This document shows positions 2,222-22,697 of a stretch of DNA of 23,469 nt, piece after piece. Position numbers and translations under genes: made by a program. The first letter of the stretch is position 1. Each line of letters starts with the position of its first letter. The notes beneath the pieces are model-generated. The model made no database searches, was not told the origin of the DNA, and worked only from the letters and a program-made list of their open reading frames with translations. This DNA comes from a virus, in UHGV virus genome UHGV-0341897; one strand, written 5' to 3'.

Positions 2222-2415
2222 TCGACGGGGAGTTCAGGATCAAGCGATATCGGACTCATCCTCAACACCACCTGATTAATTTGGAGAGCGGGAGAAGGGA
2301 GATGCTACCAGTAGATGATGACGGTTACGGTTCTGCTCCCGCGATATTCGGGGTGATTACTTACATCATTAATGATGCGAGGAACGCGGAGTTTGATGAT
2401 TGTCCGGTGATGTAA

Positions 2416-3084
2416 TCATATTGGCGTTATTAGTTCGGCGCCCTGATTTTTCACATTCCCGACGGCACGCGTTACGGCGTGCCATATAAATTTATCAGCC
2501 GGTACAACACCGTCGGCTGCAATTTCCGCTGCTTCTTTCCCTCCAACATCCTGCCTCATCCATTCACGCGCGGCTTCCGGTAGCAGTACCAGTGGTCGTC
2601 TGTCGTGAATATCAACCAGTCCTTTGTCAGCTGCAGCTGTAACTATCAGGAAACCTTCTGCTTCATCTCCACGTTCGAATGGTGTGCTGCCGATCGCCGC
2701 CATAAAAATCGGCTGACCGTCTGCCCGGTGAATAAAGTAGGGTTGTTTTTGGTCGCCTTCCTTTTTCCACTCATACCATCCATCAGCAAAGCAAATTGCG
2801 CGGCCATGCTGCCAGAGTGGTTTAAACATTCTGCTGGTGGCAGCAGTTTCAGACCGTGCATTAATGAGCGGCGGTTTATCCCACCAACCGGGGGCGTATC
2901 CCCAGATAACTGGATCAAGATGCAACTGCTCATCACGTTCGCTCAGAAGCAGAACTTTTGTTCCTGGCGCTACGTTGAATCTTCCGATGGGTTCTGGATC
3001 GTATGGAATATCGCGTTCTGATTCATCAGCGAGAAGGGCAAGATAATCTTCACGGGTCATTGACTGTGAAAAGCGTCCACACAT
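2416..3084 (-). CDS. yedK: SOS-response-associated peptidase (SRAP; YedK/HMCES family, abasic-site processing)
   Basis: 222-aa ORF starting MCGRFSQ (the catalytic Cys2 signature of SRAP proteins), the same length as E. coli YedK. A GGAGG Shine-Dalgarno sits about 7 nt upstream of the ATG. Confidence 0.85.
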   Translation of the reverse strand: MCGRFSQSMTREDYLALLADESERDIPYDPEPIGRFNVAPGTKVLLLSERDEQLHLDPVIWGYAPGWWDKPPLINARSETAATSRMFKPLWQHGRAICFADGWYEWKKEGDQKQPYFIHRADGQPIFMAAIGSTPFERGDEAEGFLIVTAAADKGLVDIHDRRPLVLLPEAAREWMRQDVGGKEAAEIAADGVVPADKFIWHAVTRAVGNVKNQGAELITPI

Positions 3085-3318
3085 AGAAACCTCCAGCCGT
3101 ATGTCAGACTGAAAGTATAGGGCAGTTAGAAAAAGTGGTGCACACCGTTAAAGATTTAAAAGGAGCATGTAAGGTAAATCGGAATGATGGTTTTGTGAAT
3201 TGATGAATTCCGAAAGTGAAAAAGATACTTAATCATTGTGTGCTAGCGATACGGGGGCAACATTTGACGGGGTTTTTCCCCTGTAATTCCCCATTGCTTC
3301 CCCGTTCAGAAAACAGGC

Positions 3319-3349
3319 AAAAAAACCAGCCGTAACAGGCTGGTTCTTC
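3319..3349 (-). terminator. Rho-independent terminator immediately 3' of the tRNA-like fragment
   Basis: Minus strand reads AACCAGCC-tgttac-GGCTGGTT followed by TTTTTTT. Confidence 0.5.
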
Positions 3350-3358
3350 GAGGATTTT

Positions 3359-3410
3359 TGGTCAGCACGAGAGGATTTGAACCTCCGCCCCCGACACCCC
3401 ATAGCGGTGA
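3359..3410 (-). other. tRNA-Pro-like 3' half (T-arm, acceptor 3' strand and CCA; no 5' acceptor strand) - probable att-site remnant
   Basis: Minus strand reads ...CACCGCTATGGGGTGTCGGGGGCGGAGGTTCAAATCCTCTCGTGCTGACCA. It has a GGTTCAAATCC T-loop and terminal CCA and resembles E. coli proL as recalled from memory. No complementary 5' acceptor strand (CAGCACG) is found upstream. Confidence 0.5.
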
Positions 3411-3598
3411 TCTACCTTCTCATCAAGGGTAACCATGTGCCAGAAGCAGCCCTTGCGCACATTGGATGGGTATCAAATAATGAAGTAGGTCAACTTTATT
3501 AAATAAAATTGTGTTGGTTCAGATGATCGAATGGGAATGAATAGTTTATTACTTTTGGTGACCGCAAGCGCGATCACCTTCGATTTGGTGGCAATTAC

Positions 3599-4567
3599 CT
3601 AGAATGATGCACAATCTTTAAGCTCTTTTTCTAGTTGTTCAACCAAGTCACAGCATTTTTTGATAACATCTTTAACTGACTCTGAATCTAACTTATGAAA
3701 ATTACCATTTTTTGTTTTACCTGCTCGATGAACTAAGTCATGCCTAATTAACACGCTTTTATAAACTTCTGTGAAAACAGGGAATTTAATACCAAAGGTA
3801 TCTCGATACATGCCACTTACTTTTGGCAGATTATGATAAAGAACACTCTTCATAGACTCTATCGCTTGAGACTCTATTTGTTCATGCCTTATAAATAATT
3901 CAGAAAGTAAGAATTTTTCTGTATTGTAATCTTTGAAGGTTTCAACAAAATTTCTCAAATTAGTTTGGCTACCATGAATTAGGGAAATAAATCTGTCACA
4001 TAAATATGTTTCCAAGGAAGTTATTGTATTGGCATATAGCATATACGACATTTGTATTTGTAAAGTGCTATCAATTTTTAACTGAGCATCATTTAGTTTT
4101 ATGGCGTTCTGCATACTATTTTGGAATGTCATATAGACATCTCGTTCAGATAGCGTTCGATCATCAGAGTACTGCATATCAATAACATCTAGAATGCGCT
4201 GTTCAATTAATGAAGGTCTATTCAACTGTAATATATCTATAGTCGCATGTCCTCGCTCAGTTAAACCTTCTAAATATCCATTTTTATTTTGTTTTATATG
4301 TTCTGAAAAACTTTCATTTAAAGGATTTAGAAGTAATGGTTTGCCATTTTCATCGAGAGGAAACTGATCTTTTTTAATCATGCTACATGCCTTACAAGCG
4401 ATGAGCAGGTTGTCTGTAGCATCTTGGAAGTCAGTATACTTTGATTTTGGGAAAAAACGATCAACATCCGCCATCAATGGTTCATAAAGTTTAGTGCCAC
4501 AGTAAGCACATTGATGCTTAAACTTCTCCCATAGTTCAAGTTTAAACGTTTTATAATTCTTATTCAT
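3599..4567 (-). CDS. Orphan HNH-like zinc-finger nuclease-domain protein with a C-terminal helical domain carrying an Rx4HxR (HEPN-like) motif; candidate defence or restriction protein
   Basis: 322-aa ORF in a very AT-rich island. N-terminus has C-A-Y-C ... V-D-R-F-F-P ... D-N-L-L-I-A-C-K-A-C-S-M-I-K-K, an HNH/His-Me finger pattern with Arg where the catalytic His is expected. C-terminus has LIRHDLVHRAG. AAGGAA Shine-Dalgarno lies 8 nt upstream of the ATG. Confidence 0.75.
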   Translation of the reverse strand: MNKNYKTFKLELWEKFKHQCAYCGTKLYEPLMADVDRFFPKSKYTDFQDATDNLLIACKACSMIKKDQFPLDENGKPLLLNPLNESFSEHIKQNKNGYLEGLTERGHATIDILQLNRPSLIEQRILDVIDMQYSDDRTLSERDVYMTFQNSMQNAIKLNDAQLKIDSTLQIQMSYMLYANTITSLETYLCDRFISLIHGSQTNLRNFVETFKDYNTEKFLLSELFIRHEQIESQAIESMKSVLYHNLPKVSGMYRDTFGIKFPVFTEVYKSVLIRHDLVHRAGKTKNGNFHKLDSESVKDVIKKCCDLVEQLEKELKDCASF

Positions 4568-4640
4568 TGAATAGTTCCTTTATATTCTTGACTTGATTGT
4601 TTGTTTGCCAATTTAAGCCAAAGACACACGACTTTAATTG

Positions 4641-4676
4641 GGCTTGAATCATAGTTATATGTAATCTATTAAGCAA
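4641..4676 (-). promoter_or_regulatory. Putative sigma-70 promoter for the HNH-like gene
   Basis: Minus strand reads TTGCTT, a 17-nt spacer, then TATGAT, about 75 nt upstream of the ATG. Sequence-only prediction. Confidence 0.3.
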
Positions 4677-5011
4677 ACACTTTTCATTAATAGCATGAGA
4701 TAACGCTCAATTCTTTATTTTCCGGGAGTGTGTAACTTCATATCCACCTCTCACTCACAGCGTACGTTATTGGCGAAAAATTTAGTTAAGCCATTGATAG
4801 TTTGTGAAAACACGCATGATTTAAAATCCCTTTGCCGTGAAGGGGCTGATAGGTACAGGCACTTGTTTTTGCCCTCTAAAACGGTTATCAAAACCAAAAA
4901 ACATACATTGATAATCAATAGGTTAGGGGAAAGATAAAAGCCAGTTGATTTACAATAAAATTATAGGATTATTTTTATTTATCATGCGGTTGTATATGAA
5001 CCATCTAACTA

Positions 5012-5176
5012 CTGCTGCGCCATATGGGCTGGACTGAAGCCGCAGACCTGATTGTTAAAGGTATGGAAGGCGCAATCAACGCGAAGACCGTAACCTATGA
5101 CTTCGAACGTCTGATGGAAGGCGCTAAACTGCTGAAATGTTCAGAGTTTGGTGACGCGATCATCAAGAACATGTAA
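5012..5176 (+). pseudogene. icd: Isocitrate dehydrogenase 3'-terminal 165-bp segment (icdC-like att homology), not joined to an icd body
   Basis: Translation [54 protein letters not shown] matches the Icd C-terminus. An in-frame TAA lies immediately upstream, and the DNA further upstream is AT-rich and unrelated. Confidence 0.85.
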
Positions 5177-5199
5177 TCTCTACATGTGTTAAATATTGA

Positions 5200-5230
5200 A
5201 ACGGGCGTATAACACGCCCGTTGTTTTATG
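5200..5230 (+). terminator. Rho-independent terminator after the icd 3' segment
   Basis: Perfect 9-bp stem AACGGGCGT / ACGCCCGTT with loop ATAAC, followed by TTGTTTTAT. Confidence 0.65.
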
Positions 5231-5242
5231 ATGATGTAAAAT

Positions 5243-5279
5243 CTTCCCCAAAACTTTCCCCAAAACCCTTCCCCAAAAC
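5243..5279 (+). repeat. Three tandem 12-bp direct repeats (C/T)TTCCCCAAAAC between the att homology and int; candidate integrase arm-type binding sites
   Basis: Direct reading gives cttccccaaaac, tttccccaaaac, c, cttccccaaaac. An imperfect inverted copy (gttaggggaaag) lies near 4922-4935 on the other side of the icd segment. Confidence 0.55.
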
Positions 5280-5289
5280 TGGCTATTTT

Positions 5290-6432
5290 CTATGCTGTTT
5301 TGATATCTACGATAATCCAGTCTTTACCACGATCATCATTGTATCGGTCGGTCATTTTTCTGGATTTATGGCCTAACAACTTTTGCGTATCCAGACCCTG
5401 TTCCCGATATAACCGTTCTGACAGAGATCGCTGCTCATGAAATGTGGGCGCAGTTCCTTGCTCCCATTTTATGCCACATTTTTCCCTGGCCTTTTTAAAA
5501 GCCGTTGTCAGAGTATTCGCAGAAACCTGGTCTCCTCTGTTTGCTTGAGAGGTTGTGTGACGGTAATGGACCAGATATTTACTAACAACAGCATCCCTGC
5601 ACTGAGATATAACTTCACGAAGGGTAATATTCAGAGCATCGCATTTCAGGTTAAGCGGAATAGCAAGTTTTGAACCGGTTTTTTCCTGAGTAATGTGCAA
5701 CATGTCGTCCCAGATATCAGAGAATTTCAAATTGCAGATATCGCCTAAACGTTGTCCAGTGACAAGAGCAAGTAGCATCCCACATTTTAAATAGGGCTGC
5801 CGTCTGCTTACGCTGTCAAATATTGCCTGCCATTCGGGCAGTGATAATCTTTGGCGGTTTACTCGATTTCGCGGTTGTTTTGTTGCCTGCGCTGGGTTAA
5901 ATCCTGGCGGAACATGTCCTGCGTGTTGTGCTTCTTTGAAGACGTCGATTAACACCATTCTCACGACTTGCGCCATCCTGTTATGACCTTCAGCCTTTAC
6001 AGCATCAATTATTTCGGCAATATCAAGTGCGGTAATATCCTTGAGGTGTTGCATTCCACAATGCTCACGGAAAAGACGAATGGGTTTGCCTTTTTGCCGA
6101 TAGGAGTTGGGTCTTAGTTCATTATGTTGCAGCCTGTCCTCCTGGATAGAAATATATTTATCAAGCCATTCTGTCACCGTAATGTCTGAGCGCCTGCCTT
6201 TCATTCTTTCCAGACGCTCATTGACGCTTAATATTTGTCGGGTACGTTGTTCAGCAATAATGATATTTGCTTCAGTAGCAACTTGTTTTGCTTCATTCTC
6301 ATCAGTTCCTAAGCTATGAAAACGACCGGATAGTGGATGTTTGTATTGCCAATATACCTTTCCGGTTCGCTTATCTAATTTGCAATATAAATTGGGTATA
6401 GAGATTTTGTGAGATCGGGGTCTAGCAGCCAT
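5290..6432 (-). CDS. int: Tyrosine recombinase, lambda-family integrase
   Basis: 380-aa ORF whose C-terminus (HEQRSLSERLY ... LLGHKS ... TDRYNDDRGKDW) parallels the lambda Int catalytic region. It is adjacent to the att homology and overlaps xis. Confidence 0.95.
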   Translation of the reverse strand: MAARPRSHKISIPNLYCKLDKRTGKVYWQYKHPLSGRFHSLGTDENEAKQVATEANIIIAEQRTRQILSVNERLERMKGRRSDITVTEWLDKYISIQEDRLQHNELRPNSYRQKGKPIRLFREHCGMQHLKDITALDIAEIIDAVKAEGHNRMAQVVRMVLIDVFKEAQHAGHVPPGFNPAQATKQPRNRVNRQRLSLPEWQAIFDSVSRRQPYLKCGMLLALVTGQRLGDICNLKFSDIWDDMLHITQEKTGSKLAIPLNLKCDALNITLREVISQCRDAVVSKYLVHYRHTTSQANRGDQVSANTLTTAFKKAREKCGIKWEQGTAPTFHEQRSLSERLYREQGLDTQKLLGHKSRKMTDRYNDDRGKDWIIVDIKTA

Positions 6433-7379: not shown

Positions 7380-7401
7380 ATGATGATTTTGTTTTTCATG
7401 T

Positions 7402-7683
7402 TCACCGTTCCTTAAAGACGCCGTTTAACATGCCGATCGCCAGGCTTAAATGAGTCGGTGTGAATCCCATCAGCGTTACCGTTTCGCGGTGCTTCTTCAG
7501 TACGCTACGGCAAATGTCATCGACGTTTTTATCCGGAAACTGCTGTCTGGCTTTTTTGATTTCATAATTAGCCTGACGGGCAATACTGCGAAGGGCGTTT
7601 TCTTGCTGAGGTGTCATTGAACAAGTCCCATGTCGGCAAGCATAAGCACACAGAATATGAAGCCCGCTGCCAGAAAAATGCAT
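7402..7683 (-). CDS. Hypothetical early-left protein (possibly starting at internal Met23)
   Basis: 93-aa ORF in the gene string between exo and xis. No family recognised. Confidence 0.45.
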   Translation of the reverse strand: MHFSGSGLHILCAYACRHGTCSMTPQQENALRSIARQANYEIKKARQQFPDKNVDDICRSVLKKHRETVTLMGFTPTHLSLAIGMLNGVFKER

Positions 7684-7693
7684 TCAGTGGTTG

Positions 7694-7885
7694 TCATACC
7701 TGGTCTCTCTCATCTGCTTCTGCTTTCGCCACCATCATTTCCAGCTTTTGTGAAAGGGATGTGGCTAACGTATGAAATTCTTCGTCTGTTTCTACTGGTA
7801 TTGGCACAAACCTGACTCCAATTTGAGCGAGGCTATGTGCCATCTCGATACTCGTTCTTAACTCAACGGGAGATGCTTTGTGCAT
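7694..7885 (-). CDS. Hypothetical early-left protein
   Basis: 63-aa acidic ORF co-oriented with the operon. Confidence 0.4.
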   Translation of the reverse strand: MHKASPVELRTSIEMAHSLAQIGVRFVPIPVETDEEFHTLATSLSQKLEMMVAKAEADERDQV

Positions 7886-9504: not shown

Positions 9505-9801
9505 TTATACCTCTGAATCAATATCAACCTGATGGTGAGCAATGGTTTCAACCATGTACCGGATGTGTTCTGCCATGCGCTCCTGAAACTCAACATCGTC
9601 ATCAAACGCACGGGTAATGGCTTTTTTGCTGGCCCCGTGGCGTTGCAAATGATCGATGCAGAGTGATTCAAACAGGTGCTGGGACAGACCCTTTTCCATG
9701 TCGTCTGCCAGTTCTGCCTCTTTCTCTTCACGGGCGATCTGCTGGTAGTGACGTGCCCAGCTCTGAGCCTCAAGACGATCCTGAATGTAATAAGCGTTCA
9801 T
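9505..9801 (-). CDS. gam: Gam, RecBCD inhibitor (98-aa GamS-length form)
   Basis: [42 protein letters not shown]... matches lambda GamS. An in-frame TAA lies 19 codons upstream of the ATG, so no GamL-type extension is possible. Confidence 0.95.
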
Positions 9802-9876
9802 GGCTGAACTCCTGAAAATGGCTGTGAAAATATCGCCCGCGAAATGCCCGGCTGATTAGGAAAACAGGAAAGGGGA

Positions 9877-10287
9877 TTAGTGATTGAGGCCGTTACCGCG
9901 TCCGTCGAGAAAAACTTCCACGAGCAAATCACGGGTATAAGTGCGCTCGATGCCGCGATGCAGATAAAGCCGTCCGCGTAAATTAGCTGATGCAGTCCAG
10001 GTACCATCTTTGTGTTTGACCAGCATTCCTGGCATGACCGCACCTCGATTAACGGTCTGCGTTCCGTAATGTTGATGAACCATAAAAACTCCTGCCCGTA
10101 AGCTGGGCTGCTGAACATATAGAGACTTCTGCGCGTATTCAGGCGGTGGATGGCCGCCGGTTGTCATAACTAAGCCGCCTCGTTGAAGCGACTGAGGTAT
10201 GAGGTGTTGAGTTGATTTCAGCTGGTCACACCGACGTTCACGCGTCCGCTTCACCCCTCGCACTCCCCGGAGCCTGCTGAAATTCAA
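9877..10287 (-). CDS. Hypothetical first gene of the leftward operon, with an arginine-rich N-terminal segment
   Basis: ORF track start is a TTG. N-terminus [10 protein letters not shown] resembles the lambda N arginine-rich motif, but the rest is unlike N. An internal ATG at 10167 would give a 96-aa product. Coding status is uncertain. Confidence 0.4.
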
Positions 10288-10353
10288 GCTGCGGATCTAA
10301 GCGGTCATCGCAACGGTGAATCAGGTGATTGCCGTATCGTTGTGTTGTTGCGA

Positions 10354-10405
10354 CATGGTGATAATAGCTATTGCTATTGACTATATCAATACTTATTGCT
10401 ATTGA
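10354..10405 (-). promoter_or_regulatory. Putative pL promoter with overlapping operator-like repeats (oL)
   Basis: Minus strand reads TTGATA, a 17-nt spacer, then TATTAT. The 17-bp inverted repeat TATTGACTATATCAATA and two copies of ATTGCTATTGA overlap it. Confidence 0.45.
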
Positions 10406-10529
10406 TTGATGTGTTTTGATATTAACTGTTTGATAGCAAAAAGAATTAATTTTGTGACTTGCATCGCATAGCGATAACTGAAGCGAGGTCGTGGTGGTTT
10501 TTTGAACGGTTTATGTGATGAGGGGAGGC

Positions 10530-10557
10530 AAAAGAAAACCCGGCACGACGGCCGGGG
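10530..10557 (-). terminator. Rho-independent terminator 3' of the 287-aa gene
   Basis: Minus strand reads CCCGGCC-gtcgt-GCCGGG followed by TTTTCTTTT, directly after the stop codon at 10561-10563. Confidence 0.55.
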
Positions 10558-10560
10558 AAA

Positions 10561-11424
10561 TCATTTCGCATCTACAATAAATAACCTGTTTATCTGGCCT
10601 TTTTTAACAGTAGCCTTTGCGGTTATAGTGAATACTGCAGATGGATCACCTTTGGTTGATATATATGCACTAAGAGCTCTAATATACGGGTTATTCTTCT
10701 TTCCTGCAGCTGGATCGCTAATTTCAGCAGTGATTCTCTTTTTTGAGTCATCACCATCTAAAATTATTTTAGCTGTCATATTTTGTGCATCAAATTCTGT
10801 AAGAAAAGCACGATACTCACGAAGACCGAGAACTTCATCATCATCAAGCCTATCAATTTCAGCTTTATCTCTCTCGTTAACTTTTAGAAGGCAGCCGTCA
10901 ACATTTGTTGCAACACTTATCTGATCGCAAGTATTACCAATAGGTGATACTGCCTGCCTTACAGAGGGGCGAAGCTCTACAGCCATTCGGTCAATCAAAG
11001 AGATCAACTTATCAATGGTTCCAGCATCCTTGTTTCCTAGTGCCTCTATGGCCTTTTCAAGTGACTGCTGCAAAGCTTTCATTTCATCTTTCTTGTTAGA
11101 ATTTCTCGCAAAAATATATTGTAGTATTGCGCCAAGTATAGTTGCGGCGATCCCCGAGAACAACTGGTTCTGAGTGGCGAAGTTAAGAACTGCTTCAAGA
11201 GTAAAGCAGTTAGCTTTTGCTTCGCGTGCGTAAACCTTAACTTCCTGATAATTAATGTATTTACTATATTTTTGTGTAACAGAGAAAGAAGCTGCTGTTG
11301 AGAGAACTTTAGAAAAACCCTTTAGGGATTCTCCTAGGCAGTTCAAATCTATTTCATGATTTAAAGCATCTTTTCCGTCATACCTAAGAGAGATTTTTAT
11401 ATCCTGTAAAGCGTCACAATCCAT
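10561..11424 (-). CDS. Uncharacterised 287-aa protein at the rexAB-equivalent position downstream of cI; candidate exclusion or abortive-infection protein
   Basis: Long AT-rich ORF 66 bp downstream of cI and co-oriented with it, ending at its own terminator before oL/pL. Contains one hydrophobic helix ([19 protein letters not shown]) followed by a charged coiled-coil-like stretch. No family recognised. Confidence 0.75.
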
Positions 11425-21188: not shown

Positions 21189-22271
21189 TTAGAACTGATA
21201 AACCAGACCTACAGCGACGATGTCGTCGGTATCAATACCAGCTGTTTTGGTAAACTTACTATCGTCAATTAAGTTGATTTTGTAATCAACAAAAGTGGAC
21301 ATGTTTTTATTAAAGTAGTAAGTAGCACCGACATCGACATACTTGACTAAGTCTCGGTCACCATGAACACCAAGGTCTTTACCTTTTGACTGAAGGTAAG
21401 CAACAGATGGGCGCAGACCGAAGTCAAACTGATATTGTGCTACTGCTTCAAAGTTTTGTGCTTTGTTTGCAATATGGTTATTACCAAAAACGGTCATATT
21501 CTGAGTTTCAGAATATGTGGTAGCCAGATAGATATTGTTCGCATCATATTTCAGGCCTGCAGCCCATACTTCCGCATTTTTGCCGGAGGCATTGAATTTG
21601 CTCTTACCATAGGCGACCTGACCGTCAGTGCGATCTGATTTAGCATAGGTTGCACCCACGCCGAATCCTTCATACTCATAAGTAGTGGAGAAACCGAAAC
21701 CATCACCATTGGCTTCAGTTACGTCAGTGCGGTCATTTTTACCCTGATACTGAGCAGCAAAGTTCAGGCCATCGACCAGACCAAAGAAGTCGTTGTTACG
21801 ATAAGTTGCAACACCAGTAGTGCGACCAGTCATGAACACATCTGTTTGGGTCCAGGTATCACCACCGAATTCTGGCAGAACGTCAGTCCACGCACCGATG
21901 TCGTATGCTACACCGTAGTTACGGCCGTAATCGATTGAGCCGTAATCACCAAATTTCAGGCCTGCAAATGCAAGACGGGTTTTGTCTTTGGAAGAACCTT
22001 GAGATTCAGCACGGTTGCCTTTGAATTCATATTCCCACTGACCGAAACCAGTCAGTTGATCGTTGATTTGGGTTTCACCTTTGAAGCCAAGACGGGCATA
22101 AGTAGTATCACCATCATCTGCATCATTAGAGGAGAAGTAGTGCTTGGCATTAACTTTCCCGTATAGATCCAGCTTGTTACTGTCTTTATTATAAATTTCA
22201 GCTGCCTGAGCAGACATCGCCATCAGTACTGATGCAGCTACAGCAGAAATTGCCACTGTTAATTTTTTCAT
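21189..22271 (-). CDS. nmpC: Outer-membrane general porin (NmpC/OmpD, OmpC family), intact
   Basis: 360-aa product from the internal Met ([23 protein letters not shown] signal peptide, then AEIYNKD...). Ends ...VGLVYQF with the beta-barrel C-terminal Phe. Not interrupted by any insertion sequence. Confidence 0.9.
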
Positions 22272-22697
22272 TGTACGCCCTTTTTTTGAACTATTATTAA
22301 AAAATGATGTCACTGCGCGATAAATATTCATCTAATCAATGTGATTATTTCAAGATGTAAGTTTTAGTTTCTCATTTAATTTGTGAAGTAGATCTCTATT
22401 TTTATCTGAACCTTTTCTATCTAATCCTATTCATGGCTCTTGTTTGAACGAAAATAAATCTATTAGCTAATTTATATTAATGGCACTTATTTATAAGCGC
22501 TCTATAATTCTTTAGCTTAATTTAAACAAACTAAAAATAACATCGGAAATTATTCATTGGTTATTTGTTGAAGTTTTCTTATGTATTTGTGGTGGTGTTT
22601 TGAACACTCGGTGGCATTCTCACAAATATCATTTAGTAGTTTACGTACGTAAAAAATTGGTTATGCTGTTAAGAGTGGTTACTTCGTCACACAGCTT

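What the first reader, a model, noticed from the sequence alone, without database searches (positions are those of the whole stretch)
3599..4567. Orphan AT-rich gene encoding an HNH-like finger fused to a helical domain with an Rx4HxR motif, at the position where e14 carries mcrA
A 322-aa ORF sits alone in an island far more AT-rich than the flanking phage genes, with its own putative promoter and AAGGAA Shine-Dalgarno. The N-terminus has the HNH/His-Me finger pattern, but with Arg where the catalytic His is expected. The C-terminal domain has LIRHDLVHRAG, which looks like a HEPN-type RNase motif. It lies between a tail-fibre cassette and the icd att site, which is where K-12 e14 carries the HNH restriction enzyme McrA. 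This is my best candidate for an undescribed single-gene defence, restriction or toxin function.
Basis: partly seen in the sequence, partly recalled or inferred. Interest (0 to 1): 0.8.

Follow-up and report, generated by a model that had tools for sequence, protein, structure and literature searches.

The report
Prophage gene fusing HNH and HEPN nucleases
A real, horizontally mobile single gene at the end of an e14-like prophage encodes a zinc-finger HNH domain, which has lost its catalytic histidine in this allele, fused to an intact HEPN RNase domain; it is most likely an untested single-protein anti-phage (abortive-infection) factor built from known parts.

Summary
Window 3599-4567 (minus strand) is a 322-aa ORF at about 32% GC with an AAGGAA ribosome-binding site. 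It sits between the tail-fibre genes and an icd 3' fragment, where K-12 e14 carries mcrA.

The HEPN motif RHDxVHR and the four zinc cysteines are invariant in 55/55 members. The HNH catalytic His is kept in 46/55 and is Arg in this allele. The E. coli and Citrobacter copies share that Arg.

The gene travels as a roughly 1.3-kb single-gene unit. It occurs in an e14-like prophage, a satellite-like island, a lambdoid prophage, a Vibrio integron cassette and an icd-integrated defence island. No partner gene is conserved.

The best reading is a stand-alone defence or abortive-infection protein with HEPN RNase as the effector. In this allele the dead HNH finger would bind nucleic acid or regulate. 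No experiment on this architecture was found. It is a new variant of a known kind, of moderate interest.

The parts
3599..4567 (-). CDS of 322 aa, annotated in RefSeq as WP_032162444.1 'HNH endonuclease'; stop codon included
   Evidence: ORF list. It is 100% nt-identical in E. coli CDF6 and AH01. There are 60 homologues. dN/dS is about 0.2 against the Serratia and Proteus genes.
4163..4567 (-). Residues 1-135: PtuB-type zinc-finger HNH (beta-beta-alpha-Me) domain
4385..4510 (-). Span holding the four zinc-ligand cysteines (C20, C23, C58, C61) and the HNH core
   Evidence: The cysteines are invariant in 55/55 family members. The equivalent Cys4 zinc finger is essential in Retron-Eco7 PtuB (PMC12673091).
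4457..4459 (-). Codon 37, CGT (Arg), at the position of the HNH catalytic His (CAC in the Serratia and Proteus genes)
   Evidence: The family consensus His aligns with the His of the IEHF motif of a solved PtuB chain. H57A in Retron-Eco7 PtuB abolishes defence. The Citrobacter allele P0212 also has Arg.
3602..4150 (-). Residues 140-322: all-helical HEPN domain of the RiboL-PSP (PF18735) type
3728..3745 (-). Codons 275-280, R-H-D-L-V-H: the Rx4H HEPN active-site motif
   Evidence: R275, H276, D277, H280 and R281 are invariant in 55/55 full-length members.
4575..4580 (-). AAGGAA Shine-Dalgarno, 7 nt upstream of the ATG
   Evidence: Sequence. Conserved in the Serratia and Proteus loci.
4568..4761 (-). 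Upstream region that travels with the gene; presumed regulatory, promoter not defined
   Evidence: About 86% nt identity to the Serratia and Proteus loci ends at 4761. Only weak sigma-70 matches, not above chance.
3435..3598 (-). Downstream region that travels with the gene; contains a conserved GC-rich hairpin at 3557-3578
   Evidence: Homology with the Serratia loci extends to 3435. The hairpin GGTGATCGC-GCTT-GCGGTCACC is conserved in three genera.
5024..5176 (+). icd 3' fragment (attachment-site duplicate) bounding the AT-rich segment on the right
   Evidence: The ORF translation is the icd C-terminus. Annotated as a partial isocitrate dehydrogenase in the matching genomes. Equivalent to icdC of K-12.

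Best explanation
The ORF encodes a self-contained two-domain protein carried as accessory ('moron') cargo at the attR-proximal end of an icd-integrated, e14-like prophage.

Domain 1 (residues 1-135) is a PtuB-type Cys4 zinc-finger HNH fold. Domain 2 (residues 140-322) is a RiboL-PSP-type HEPN domain with an intact Rx4H site. It occupies the place of the C-terminal helices through which genuine PtuB binds its PtuA ATPase.

The most likely function is single-protein anti-phage defence or superinfection exclusion by abortive infection. On infection the HEPN domain, probably as a dimer, would cleave RNA (tRNA, rRNA or mRNA) and stop translation.

In most relatives the HNH domain is probably a second nuclease. 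In this allele the general-base His is Arg, and the Asn at position 62 is Ser. The HNH finger is therefore inferred to be catalytically dead. It would act as the nucleic-acid-binding, sensing or auto-inhibitory module.

Shown: the gene is real and under purifying selection, both folds, the motif conservation pattern, the His-to-Arg change, single-gene mobility and the mobile-element contexts. Inferred: the defence role, RNase activity, dimerisation, the trigger and the role of the dead HNH domain.
For: - **HEPN type.** PF18735 is hit by 11/29 members. Module relatives pass the gathering score.
- **Conservation.** In 55/55 members the HEPN R275/H276/D277/H280/R281, E186 and the four zinc cysteines are invariant. 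The HNH His is kept in only 46/55, with R, Q, Q, N, N, N, A and S among the replacements. This marks HEPN as the indispensable catalytic site.
- **Selection.** dN/dS is 0.19 for the HNH half and 0.20 for the HEPN half against Serratia.
- **Persistence of Arg37.** The Arg37/Ser62 allele persists with an intact ORF in E. coli (463 contigs) and in a diverged Citrobacter copy.
- **Autonomy and mobility.**
  - A 1.33-kb unit (3435-4761) is shared at 86% nt identity with Serratia and Proteus.
  - In Vibrio it is a single-gene cassette between two attC/VCR repeats.
  - Other contexts are a satellite-like island after a D5 primase, a lambdoid prophage next to xis/int, and an icd-integrated island with NACHT and Septu-like genes.
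  - No partner gene is shared between these loci.
- **Precedent.**
  - Protein A of the validated system DS-33 has a homologous HEPN module (28% identity, E=6e-13). Its authors' HHpred links that module to PD-T4-2_B.
  - PtuB H57A abolishes Retron-Eco7 defence, which supports the view that Arg37 inactivates the HNH site.
- **Position.** It is the same as the defence gene mcrA in e14.
Against: - No experiment exists for this protein or this architecture.
- No PADLOC (2023) model matches the HEPN half.
- The window protein alone is below the Pfam and NCBIfam cut-offs.
- The trigger and the RNA target are unknown.
- The allele lacks the HNH catalytic His, so it could be a crippled version of a protein that needs both nucleases.
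- All E. coli chromosomal copies examined are identical in sequence, so they say nothing about selection within E. coli.
- In the 8 complete genomes a 261-aa gene of unknown function lies just downstream and is missing here. If that gene were a partner, this copy would be incomplete. However, it sits in its own repeat-flanked cassette and is absent from all other loci.
Confidence: 0.55

Rival explanations
1. It is a DNA-targeting restriction-like nuclease, a functional analogue of McrA or a free-standing PtuB. The HNH domain would cut invading DNA, and the helical C-terminal domain would only give specificity or oligomerisation.
For: The gene occupies the mcrA position. PADLOC mREase_IV hits the HNH region at E=2e-11. 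RefSeq annotates it 'HNH endonuclease'. Most family members keep the catalytic His.
Against: This allele has Arg at the general-base His, and the H57A equivalent kills PtuB function. Eight family lineages lack the His, whereas the HEPN catalytic residues are invariant. There is no McrA-type N-terminal modified-cytosine-binding domain, because the HNH domain is itself N-terminal.
Confidence: 0.1
2. This allele is a functionally dead or decaying copy. It would be a once dual-nuclease gene inactivated by H37R (plus P45T and N62S) and simply hitch-hiking in the prophage.
For: Three of the four positions where the window deviates from residues that are at least 80% conserved fall in the HNH active-site stretch, residues 37-62. 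The gene is rare, in 8 of 5426 complete E. coli genomes. The prophage end shows other decay, such as a frameshifted S24 peptidase and partial genes in related genomes.
Against: The ORF is intact on 463 contigs. A Citrobacter copy that has diverged by about 9 residues keeps R37, an intact ORF and all HEPN residues. dN/dS of about 0.2 in both halves on the path to Serratia shows no relaxation. Independent lineages elsewhere also lack the His while keeping everything else.
Confidence: 0.17
3. It is a toxin used for mobile-element maintenance or competition (addiction or exclusion) rather than host defence. It would be held in check by an unrecognised antitoxin, either a small RNA or peptide in the conserved flanks or a host factor.
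For: HEPN domains are frequent toxins of HEPN-MNT pairs, which are among the closest structural matches (8xdj, 5yep, 7ae2). About 190 bp upstream and 160 bp downstream, with a conserved hairpin, travel with the gene. The gene is always found on mobile elements.
Against: No MNT gene or other conserved neighbour is present in any locus. No Rfam family matches the flanks. The integron cassette holds only this ORF. The distinction from abortive-infection defence is partly semantic.
Confidence: 0.12
4. It is a homing endonuclease of the kind common in phage genomes.
For: It is an HNH domain in an AT-rich insertion inside a prophage.
Against: The HNH subtype is PtuB/TIGR02646-like, not a homing type. 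It is fused to HEPN and lacks the catalytic His. No full-length copy is found in 50,697 phage records. It occurs as an integron cassette and as defence-island cargo rather than inside conserved phage genes.
Confidence: 0.03

Closest known systems
PtuB, the HNH effector of Septu and of type I-A retrons (Ec78/Eco7, Ec83); TIGR02646 family
   Different: There is no PtuA ATPase gene nearby. The PtuB C-terminal PtuA-binding helices are replaced by a HEPN domain. Scores are far below the NCBIfam cut-offs (32.7 vs 150; 17.7 vs 52.15). This allele has Arg instead of the catalytic His.
RiboL-PSP-HEPN family (Pfam PF18735; Anantharaman et al. 2013, PMC3710099), including by remote homology PD-T4-2_B and protein A of DefensePredictor system DS-33
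   Same: The C-terminal 180 residues carry the R[HN]xxxH motif in a helical bundle. PF18735 is hit at family level. Pairwise identity to the DS-33 protein WP_014639476.1 is 28%, E=6e-13, and that system was validated as anti-phage. The module has interchangeable N-terminal domains, including HEPN/RES-NTD1, a Zn ribbon, PNP and a P-loop ATPase.
   Different: The N-terminal partner here is an HNH finger. There is no second gene, whereas DS-33 and PD-T4-2 are two-gene systems. PADLOC models for PD-T4-2 and other HEPN systems do not detect it.
McrA (EcoKMcrA), the type IV HNH restriction enzyme of prophage e14
   Same: It has the same chromosomal and prophage position, between the invertible tail-fibre region and icdC. 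It is also a stand-alone accessory gene containing an HNH fold.
   Different: The domain order and partner domain differ: McrA has an N-terminal modified-DNA reader and a C-terminal HNH domain. No similarity was found beyond the generic HNH core. The catalytic His is absent here. The analogy is positional only.
Single-protein HEPN abortive-infection factors (AbiD/AbiF of the Abi2 clade, AbiJ, ApeA)
   Same: The predicted logic is the same: one polypeptide with a variable N-terminal module and a HEPN RNase effector, carried on mobile elements. Anantharaman et al. place RiboL-PSP-HEPN near AbiD/AbiF.
   Different: No detectable sequence match to their PADLOC or Pfam models. The resemblance in mechanism is inferred, not tested.

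Membership tests
HNH / His-Me finger nucleases | beta-beta-alpha-metal fold | tested here: met
HNH / His-Me finger nucleases | Catalytic general-base histidine (first H of HNH) | tested here: not met
   Arg37 (codon CGT) in the window. His in 46/55 relatives.
HNH / His-Me finger nucleases | Structural Asn and metal-ligand Asn/His on the helix | tested here: inconclusive
   N53 is invariant and present. Position 62 is Ser in the window, against Asn in 40/55. That position also varies in His-bearing members, so its role is uncertain.
Septu / retron PtuB (TIGR02646, NF041761) | Score above the curated family cut-off | tested here: not met
   NF041761 scores 32.7 bits against a cut-off of 150. TIGR02646 scores 17.7 against 52.15.
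Septu / retron PtuB (TIGR02646, NF041761) | Cys4 zinc finger within the HNH domain | tested here: met
   C20, C23, C58 and C61 are invariant in 55/55. This corresponds to C43/C46/C78/C90 of Retron-Eco7 PtuB.
Septu / retron PtuB (TIGR02646, NF041761) | Adjacent PtuA ABC/SMC-type ATPase partner, with a PtuA-binding C-terminal domain | tested here: not met
   The neighbours are an SRAP gene, a tRNA fragment and an icd fragment. No ATPase is adjacent in the Serratia, Pantoea or Vibrio loci. The C-terminus is a HEPN domain instead.
HEPN superfamily | Helical-bundle HEPN fold | tested here: met
HEPN superfamily | Rx4-6H active-site motif | tested here: met
   R275-H-D-L-V-H280 is invariant in 55/55.
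HEPN superfamily | Metal-independent RNase activity, usually as a dimer | not testable with these tools
   This needs biochemistry or a multimer prediction. Only a monomer model was possible.
Pfam PF18735 HEPN_RiboL-PSP | Score above the gathering threshold (28.4 bits) | tested here: inconclusive
   The window protein scores 16 bits, E=0.011. 11/29 close relatives hit at E<1e-3, best 5.7e-9. Module relatives P0079, P0096, P0117 and P0191 pass at 30.3-35.8 bits.
McrA-type (type IV) restriction enzyme | N-terminal modified-cytosine-binding domain plus an active C-terminal HNH domain | tested here: not met
   The HNH domain is N-terminal. The only similarity is the HNH core (PADLOC mREase_IV over residues 19-123). 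The catalytic His is absent.
HEPN-MNT toxin-antitoxin | Adjacent MNT nucleotidyltransferase antitoxin gene | tested here: not met
   No such gene is in the window or in five other loci.
Anti-phage defence system (generic) | Measured protection against phage | not testable with these tools
   Only context and homology to validated systems are available.

The most novel reading that the evidence does not exclude
The family records a transition from a dual nuclease to a sensor-effector. A PtuB-like HNH zinc finger has lost its catalytic His independently in at least seven or eight lineages, including this E. coli/Citrobacter allele. It would then serve as a pseudo-nuclease that recognises a phage nucleic-acid structure and licenses an always-conserved HEPN RNase. 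This would give an ATPase-free, one-protein equivalent of Septu.
Probability: 0.3. Interest if true: 0.65.

Novelty: new variant of a known kind. Interest (0 to 1): 0.5.

Why it matters
If it is active, this would be a compact (about 1 kb) single-gene immunity module. It combines the Septu/retron HNH effector fold with a HEPN RNase and works without the ATPase or retron that normally controls PtuB. It would also add a defined occupant to the variable 'mcrA slot' of icd-integrated prophages. The natural His-less alleles offer a ready-made experiment on whether an HNH finger can be reused as a sensor. Both domains and the general idea of HEPN-DNase fusions are already known (PMC3710099), so the advance is incremental rather than conceptual.

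Tried and rejected
- **tRNA and RNA families.** ARAGORN found no tRNA or tmRNA in the window. Rfam at a permissive E-value gave only chance-level hits in 3000-5400.
- **Repeats.** No direct repeats of 40 nt or more were found in the window.
- **PADLOC on the HEPN half.** The HEPN half alone, and nine module relatives, gave no defence-model hit for the module.
- **Single-sequence PDB search.** A search with the N-terminal domain gave only marginal hits. The profile search was needed.
- **Literature.** Searches for RiboL-PSP+HEPN+HNH, 'HNH-HEPN' and WP_032162444 found nothing. PF18735 appears only in a review table. The accession is absent from the DefensePredictor supplements. The Vibrio integron screen describes other HNH or HEPN cassettes (Sirona, Nemetona, Esos), and none of those descriptions matches this HNH + RiboL-PSP-HEPN architecture.
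- **P4 hotspot idea.** I first thought the Serratia locus was the P4 psu-int hotspot of Rousset et al. Reading the paper showed that the hotspot is defined between psu and int, whereas this gene follows the primase. I dropped that claim.
- **The 261-aa neighbour as a partner.** This gene lies downstream in 8 complete genomes. It has no Pfam or PADLOC hit. It lies in its own repeat-flanked cassette and is absent from all other loci.
- **Second 380-aa ORF.** The ORF at 21189-22331 is not a second copy of the integrase.
- **Phage and plasmid collections.** They hold only HEPN-module relatives, not the fusion.

Full report
**1. The observation**

Window 3599-4567 holds a 322-aa ATG-initiated ORF on the minus strand. 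GC is 0.315-0.345 from about 3600 to 5000, against 0.45-0.55 on either side. In DNA of that composition roughly 7.6% of random codons are stops. An open run of 322 codons therefore has a chance probability near 1e-11 (my estimate).

AAGGAA lies at 4575-4580, 7 nt before the ATG. A promoter could not be substantiated. The only match upstream of the gene is TTGGCA-16-AAGAAT at 9/12, and the region has fewer consensus hits (4) than its shuffles (7.9).

**2. Chromosomal context**

To the left lie tail-fibre and tail-fibre-assembly genes and an SRAP peptidase gene. To the right lies an icd 3' fragment at 5024-5176, followed by a lambda-type integrase at 5290-6432.

Only 8 of 5426 complete E. coli genomes carry the gene. 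In the two whose annotation was retrieved, CDF6 and AH01, it sits at the right end of a prophage with Mu-type baseplate and tail genes. There it lies immediately before the icdC remnant and iraM. In K-12 e14 that same slot (pinE - X - icdC - iraM) is occupied by mcrA.

In this window the icd fragment is followed by another integrase rather than iraM. Two elements therefore seem to be integrated in tandem at icd.

**3. Not an orphan**

RefSeq annotates the product as 'HNH endonuclease' (WP_032162444.1). The two genomic copies examined are 100% nt-identical to the window. The exact protein is recorded on 463 contigs.

A search of 5.8 billion proteins returned 60 relatives. About 45 are full-length (308-343 aa), at 39-83% identity, from Serratia, Proteus, Enterobacter, Pantoea, Vibrio and metagenomes.

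An exhaustive profile search added more distant full-length members. It also showed that the C-terminal 180 residues form a large module family (495 representatives at E<1e-30), mostly in roughly 290-aa proteins with other N-termini.

Among species-representative genomes the full fusion is rare and patchy. It appears in Pseudomonas koreensis, Algoriphagus, Minicystis, a Saccharibacteria MAG, Faecalimonas and Sediminicola. That pattern is typical of horizontally moving accessory genes.

**4. The N-terminal domain**

- PADLOC PtuB models match residues 6-156 at E=1e-23.
- A family profile hits solved PtuB/TIGR02646 chains of Septu and the retrons Ec78 and Ec83.
- Foldseek ranks the same proteins first.

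The four cysteines C20/C23/C58/C61 are invariant in 55/55 members. They correspond to the Cys4 zinc finger that is essential in Retron-Eco7 PtuB (PMC12673091).

The family consensus 'IEHF' His aligns with the His of the same motif in a solved PtuB chain. In Retron-Eco7, H57A at the conserved HNH His abolishes defence.

The window protein has Arg at that position (codon CGT, against CAC in Serratia and Proteus). It also has Ser62 where 40/55 members have Asn, and Thr45 where 26/28 aligned relatives have Pro.

Membership in Septu/PtuB proper fails on three counts:
- Scores are far below the NCBIfam cut-offs.
- No PtuA ATPase gene is adjacent.
- The PtuA-binding C-terminal domain is replaced by HEPN.

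**5. The C-terminal domain**

Alone, the protein only brushes Pfam HEPN_RiboL-PSP (E=0.011). At family level, 11 of 29 close relatives hit it at E<1e-3, best 5.7e-9. More distant module relatives pass the gathering threshold.

The motif R275-H-D-L-V-H280-R, together with E186, is invariant in all 55 full-length members. Anantharaman et al. defined 'Ribo L-PSP-HEPN' as an active HEPN family distantly related to AbiD/AbiF. They also noted that HEPN domains are repeatedly fused to R-M-type DNase domains, including HNH (PMC3710099).

Relatives of the module carry other N-terminal domains. These include HEPN/RES-NTD1, zinc ribbons, a PNP phosphorylase and a P-loop ATPase. This is the 'variable head, constant HEPN effector' pattern familiar from conflict systems.

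**6. Which site matters**

Across 55 fusion proteins the HEPN catalytic residues never change. The HNH general-base His, in contrast, is replaced in about eight lineages (R, Q, Q, N, N, N, A, S; one further case is an alignment shift).

The window allele deviates from residues that are at least 80% conserved at four positions. Three of these (37, 45, 62) lie in the HNH active-site stretch, and none lies in the HEPN core.

Even so, dN/dS against the Serratia gene is 0.19 for the HNH half and 0.20 for the HEPN half. A Citrobacter freundii copy that differs at about nine residues keeps Arg37, Ser62, an intact ORF and all HEPN residues.

The HNH fold therefore appears to be retained under constraint without its catalytic His. 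That argues for a non-catalytic role, such as binding or regulation, in these alleles. It argues against simple decay, although the evidence is modest.

**7. Autonomy and mobility**

Nucleotide homology between E. coli, Serratia and Proteus covers window 3435-4761 at about 86% identity. This is the ORF plus 194 bp upstream and 164 bp downstream, and it stops there. The flanks include the Shine-Dalgarno sequence and a conserved GC-rich hairpin at 3557-3578.

The gene occurs in several mobile contexts:
- **Vibrio:** the homologue sits alone between two VCR/attC-type repeats of a chromosomal integron array. Shedu-like and ParE/Phd cassettes are its neighbours.
- **Serratia:** it follows the D5-type primase of an AlpA/Ash satellite-like island.
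- **Pantoea:** it lies between the cI/cro region and xis/int of a lambdoid prophage.
- **Proteus:** it lies in an island that is also integrated at icd. That island carries a NACHT protein and a Septu-like ATPase plus small-protein pair.

No neighbouring gene is shared among these loci. The full fusion is absent from 50,697 phage and 72,556 plasmid records.

**8. Experimental precedent**

No paper was found on this protein or this architecture. PADLOC 2.0 has no model for its HEPN half.

The DefensePredictor study validated a two-gene E. coli system, DS-33 (working id 'GNAT'). Its first protein, WP_014639476.1, carries a homologous HEPN module (28% identity over 181 residues, E=6e-13). The authors' HHpred links that protein to PD-T4-2_B, 'RiboL-PSP-HEPN'. 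Modules of this type therefore do act in anti-phage defence.

**9. Conclusion**

The thing is a real, mobile, single-gene module of the kind 'PtuB-like HNH finger + RiboL-PSP HEPN'.

I commit to the following as the most likely mechanism, at about 0.55. It is a stand-alone abortive-infection or defence protein whose indispensable activity is HEPN-mediated RNA cleavage. In this allele the HNH finger is catalytically dead and acts in nucleic-acid recognition or control.

The rivals are:
- McrA-like DNA restriction, at 0.10. This is disfavoured by Arg37 and by the conservation pattern.
- A dead or decaying allele, at 0.17.
- An addiction-type toxin with a hidden antitoxin, at 0.12.
- A homing endonuclease, at 0.03.

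It is a new variant of known kinds, not a new category. It is worth a simple plating experiment, and the natural His-less alleles make the question sharper than usual.

Noticed in passing
window 3287-3402 (tRNA-like part about 3357-3402; terminator-like hairpin 3320-3349, minus strand): This is a roughly 115-bp segment containing the 3' half of a tRNA-Pro-like gene, from the anticodon loop to the CCA end, plus its terminator. ARAGORN finds no whole tRNA, and one genome's true tRNA-Pro matches at 94%. In CDF6 the segment is duplicated as direct repeats flanking a 1171-bp cassette with a 261-aa gene of unknown function (WP_038998787.1; no Pfam or PADLOC hit). The other seven gene-bearing complete genomes show a two-piece match spanning about 1.17 kb more than the query, with a 'hypothetical protein' under it, and AH01 has the same gene annotated. 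The window has a single repeat copy and no cassette. This looks like an integrase-less mini-island gained or lost by recombination at a tRNA-type att site inside the prophage.
   Followed up: partly
window 5024-6432: The icd 3' fragment is followed directly by a lambda-type integrase (Arm-DNA-bind_1 + Phage_integrase). In the 8 complete genomes that carry the gene it is followed by iraM instead. This suggests a second element integrated in tandem at the icd att site. No complete E. coli genome in the collection shows this exact junction.
   Followed up: partly
window 2222-2415 versus L001 8212-9945: Related prophages carry pin-type recombinase, dinI and a frameshifted S24 (UmuD-like) peptidase gene between the tail-fibre genes and the SRAP gene. 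The window has only about 195 bp there, which implies a deletion or a different arrangement.
   Followed up: no
window 3557-3578 (minus strand): A GC-rich hairpin, GGTGATCGC-GCTT-GCGGTCACC, lies about 20 nt after the stop codon. It is conserved in E. coli, Serratia and Proteus (a U-G pair in E. coli is C-G in the others) but has no following T-run. Its role (terminator, RNA stabiliser or recombination site) is unknown.
   Followed up: partly
L012 (Proteus sp. CD3) 9687-9880 and 9974-11077: The Proteus island carrying the homologue also ends in an icd-like fragment (81% identity to window 5010-5205) next to an Arm-DNA-bind_1 integrase. Unrelated cargo sets, including this gene, are therefore delivered to icd in different genera.
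   Followed up: no
L004/L006 (Serratia) 4422-4769 and 7387-7734: A 115-aa DUF6404 gene lies just upstream of the homologue on the opposite strand, and in some contigs a second copy lies downstream. It is not seen in other genera, and its significance is unknown.
   Followed up: no
window 21189-22331 (minus strand): A 380-aa ORF of the same length as the integrase is unrelated to it. The fragments shown in that comparison look porin-like (an OmpC/NmpC-type phage-borne porin), but this was not checked.
   Followed up: no
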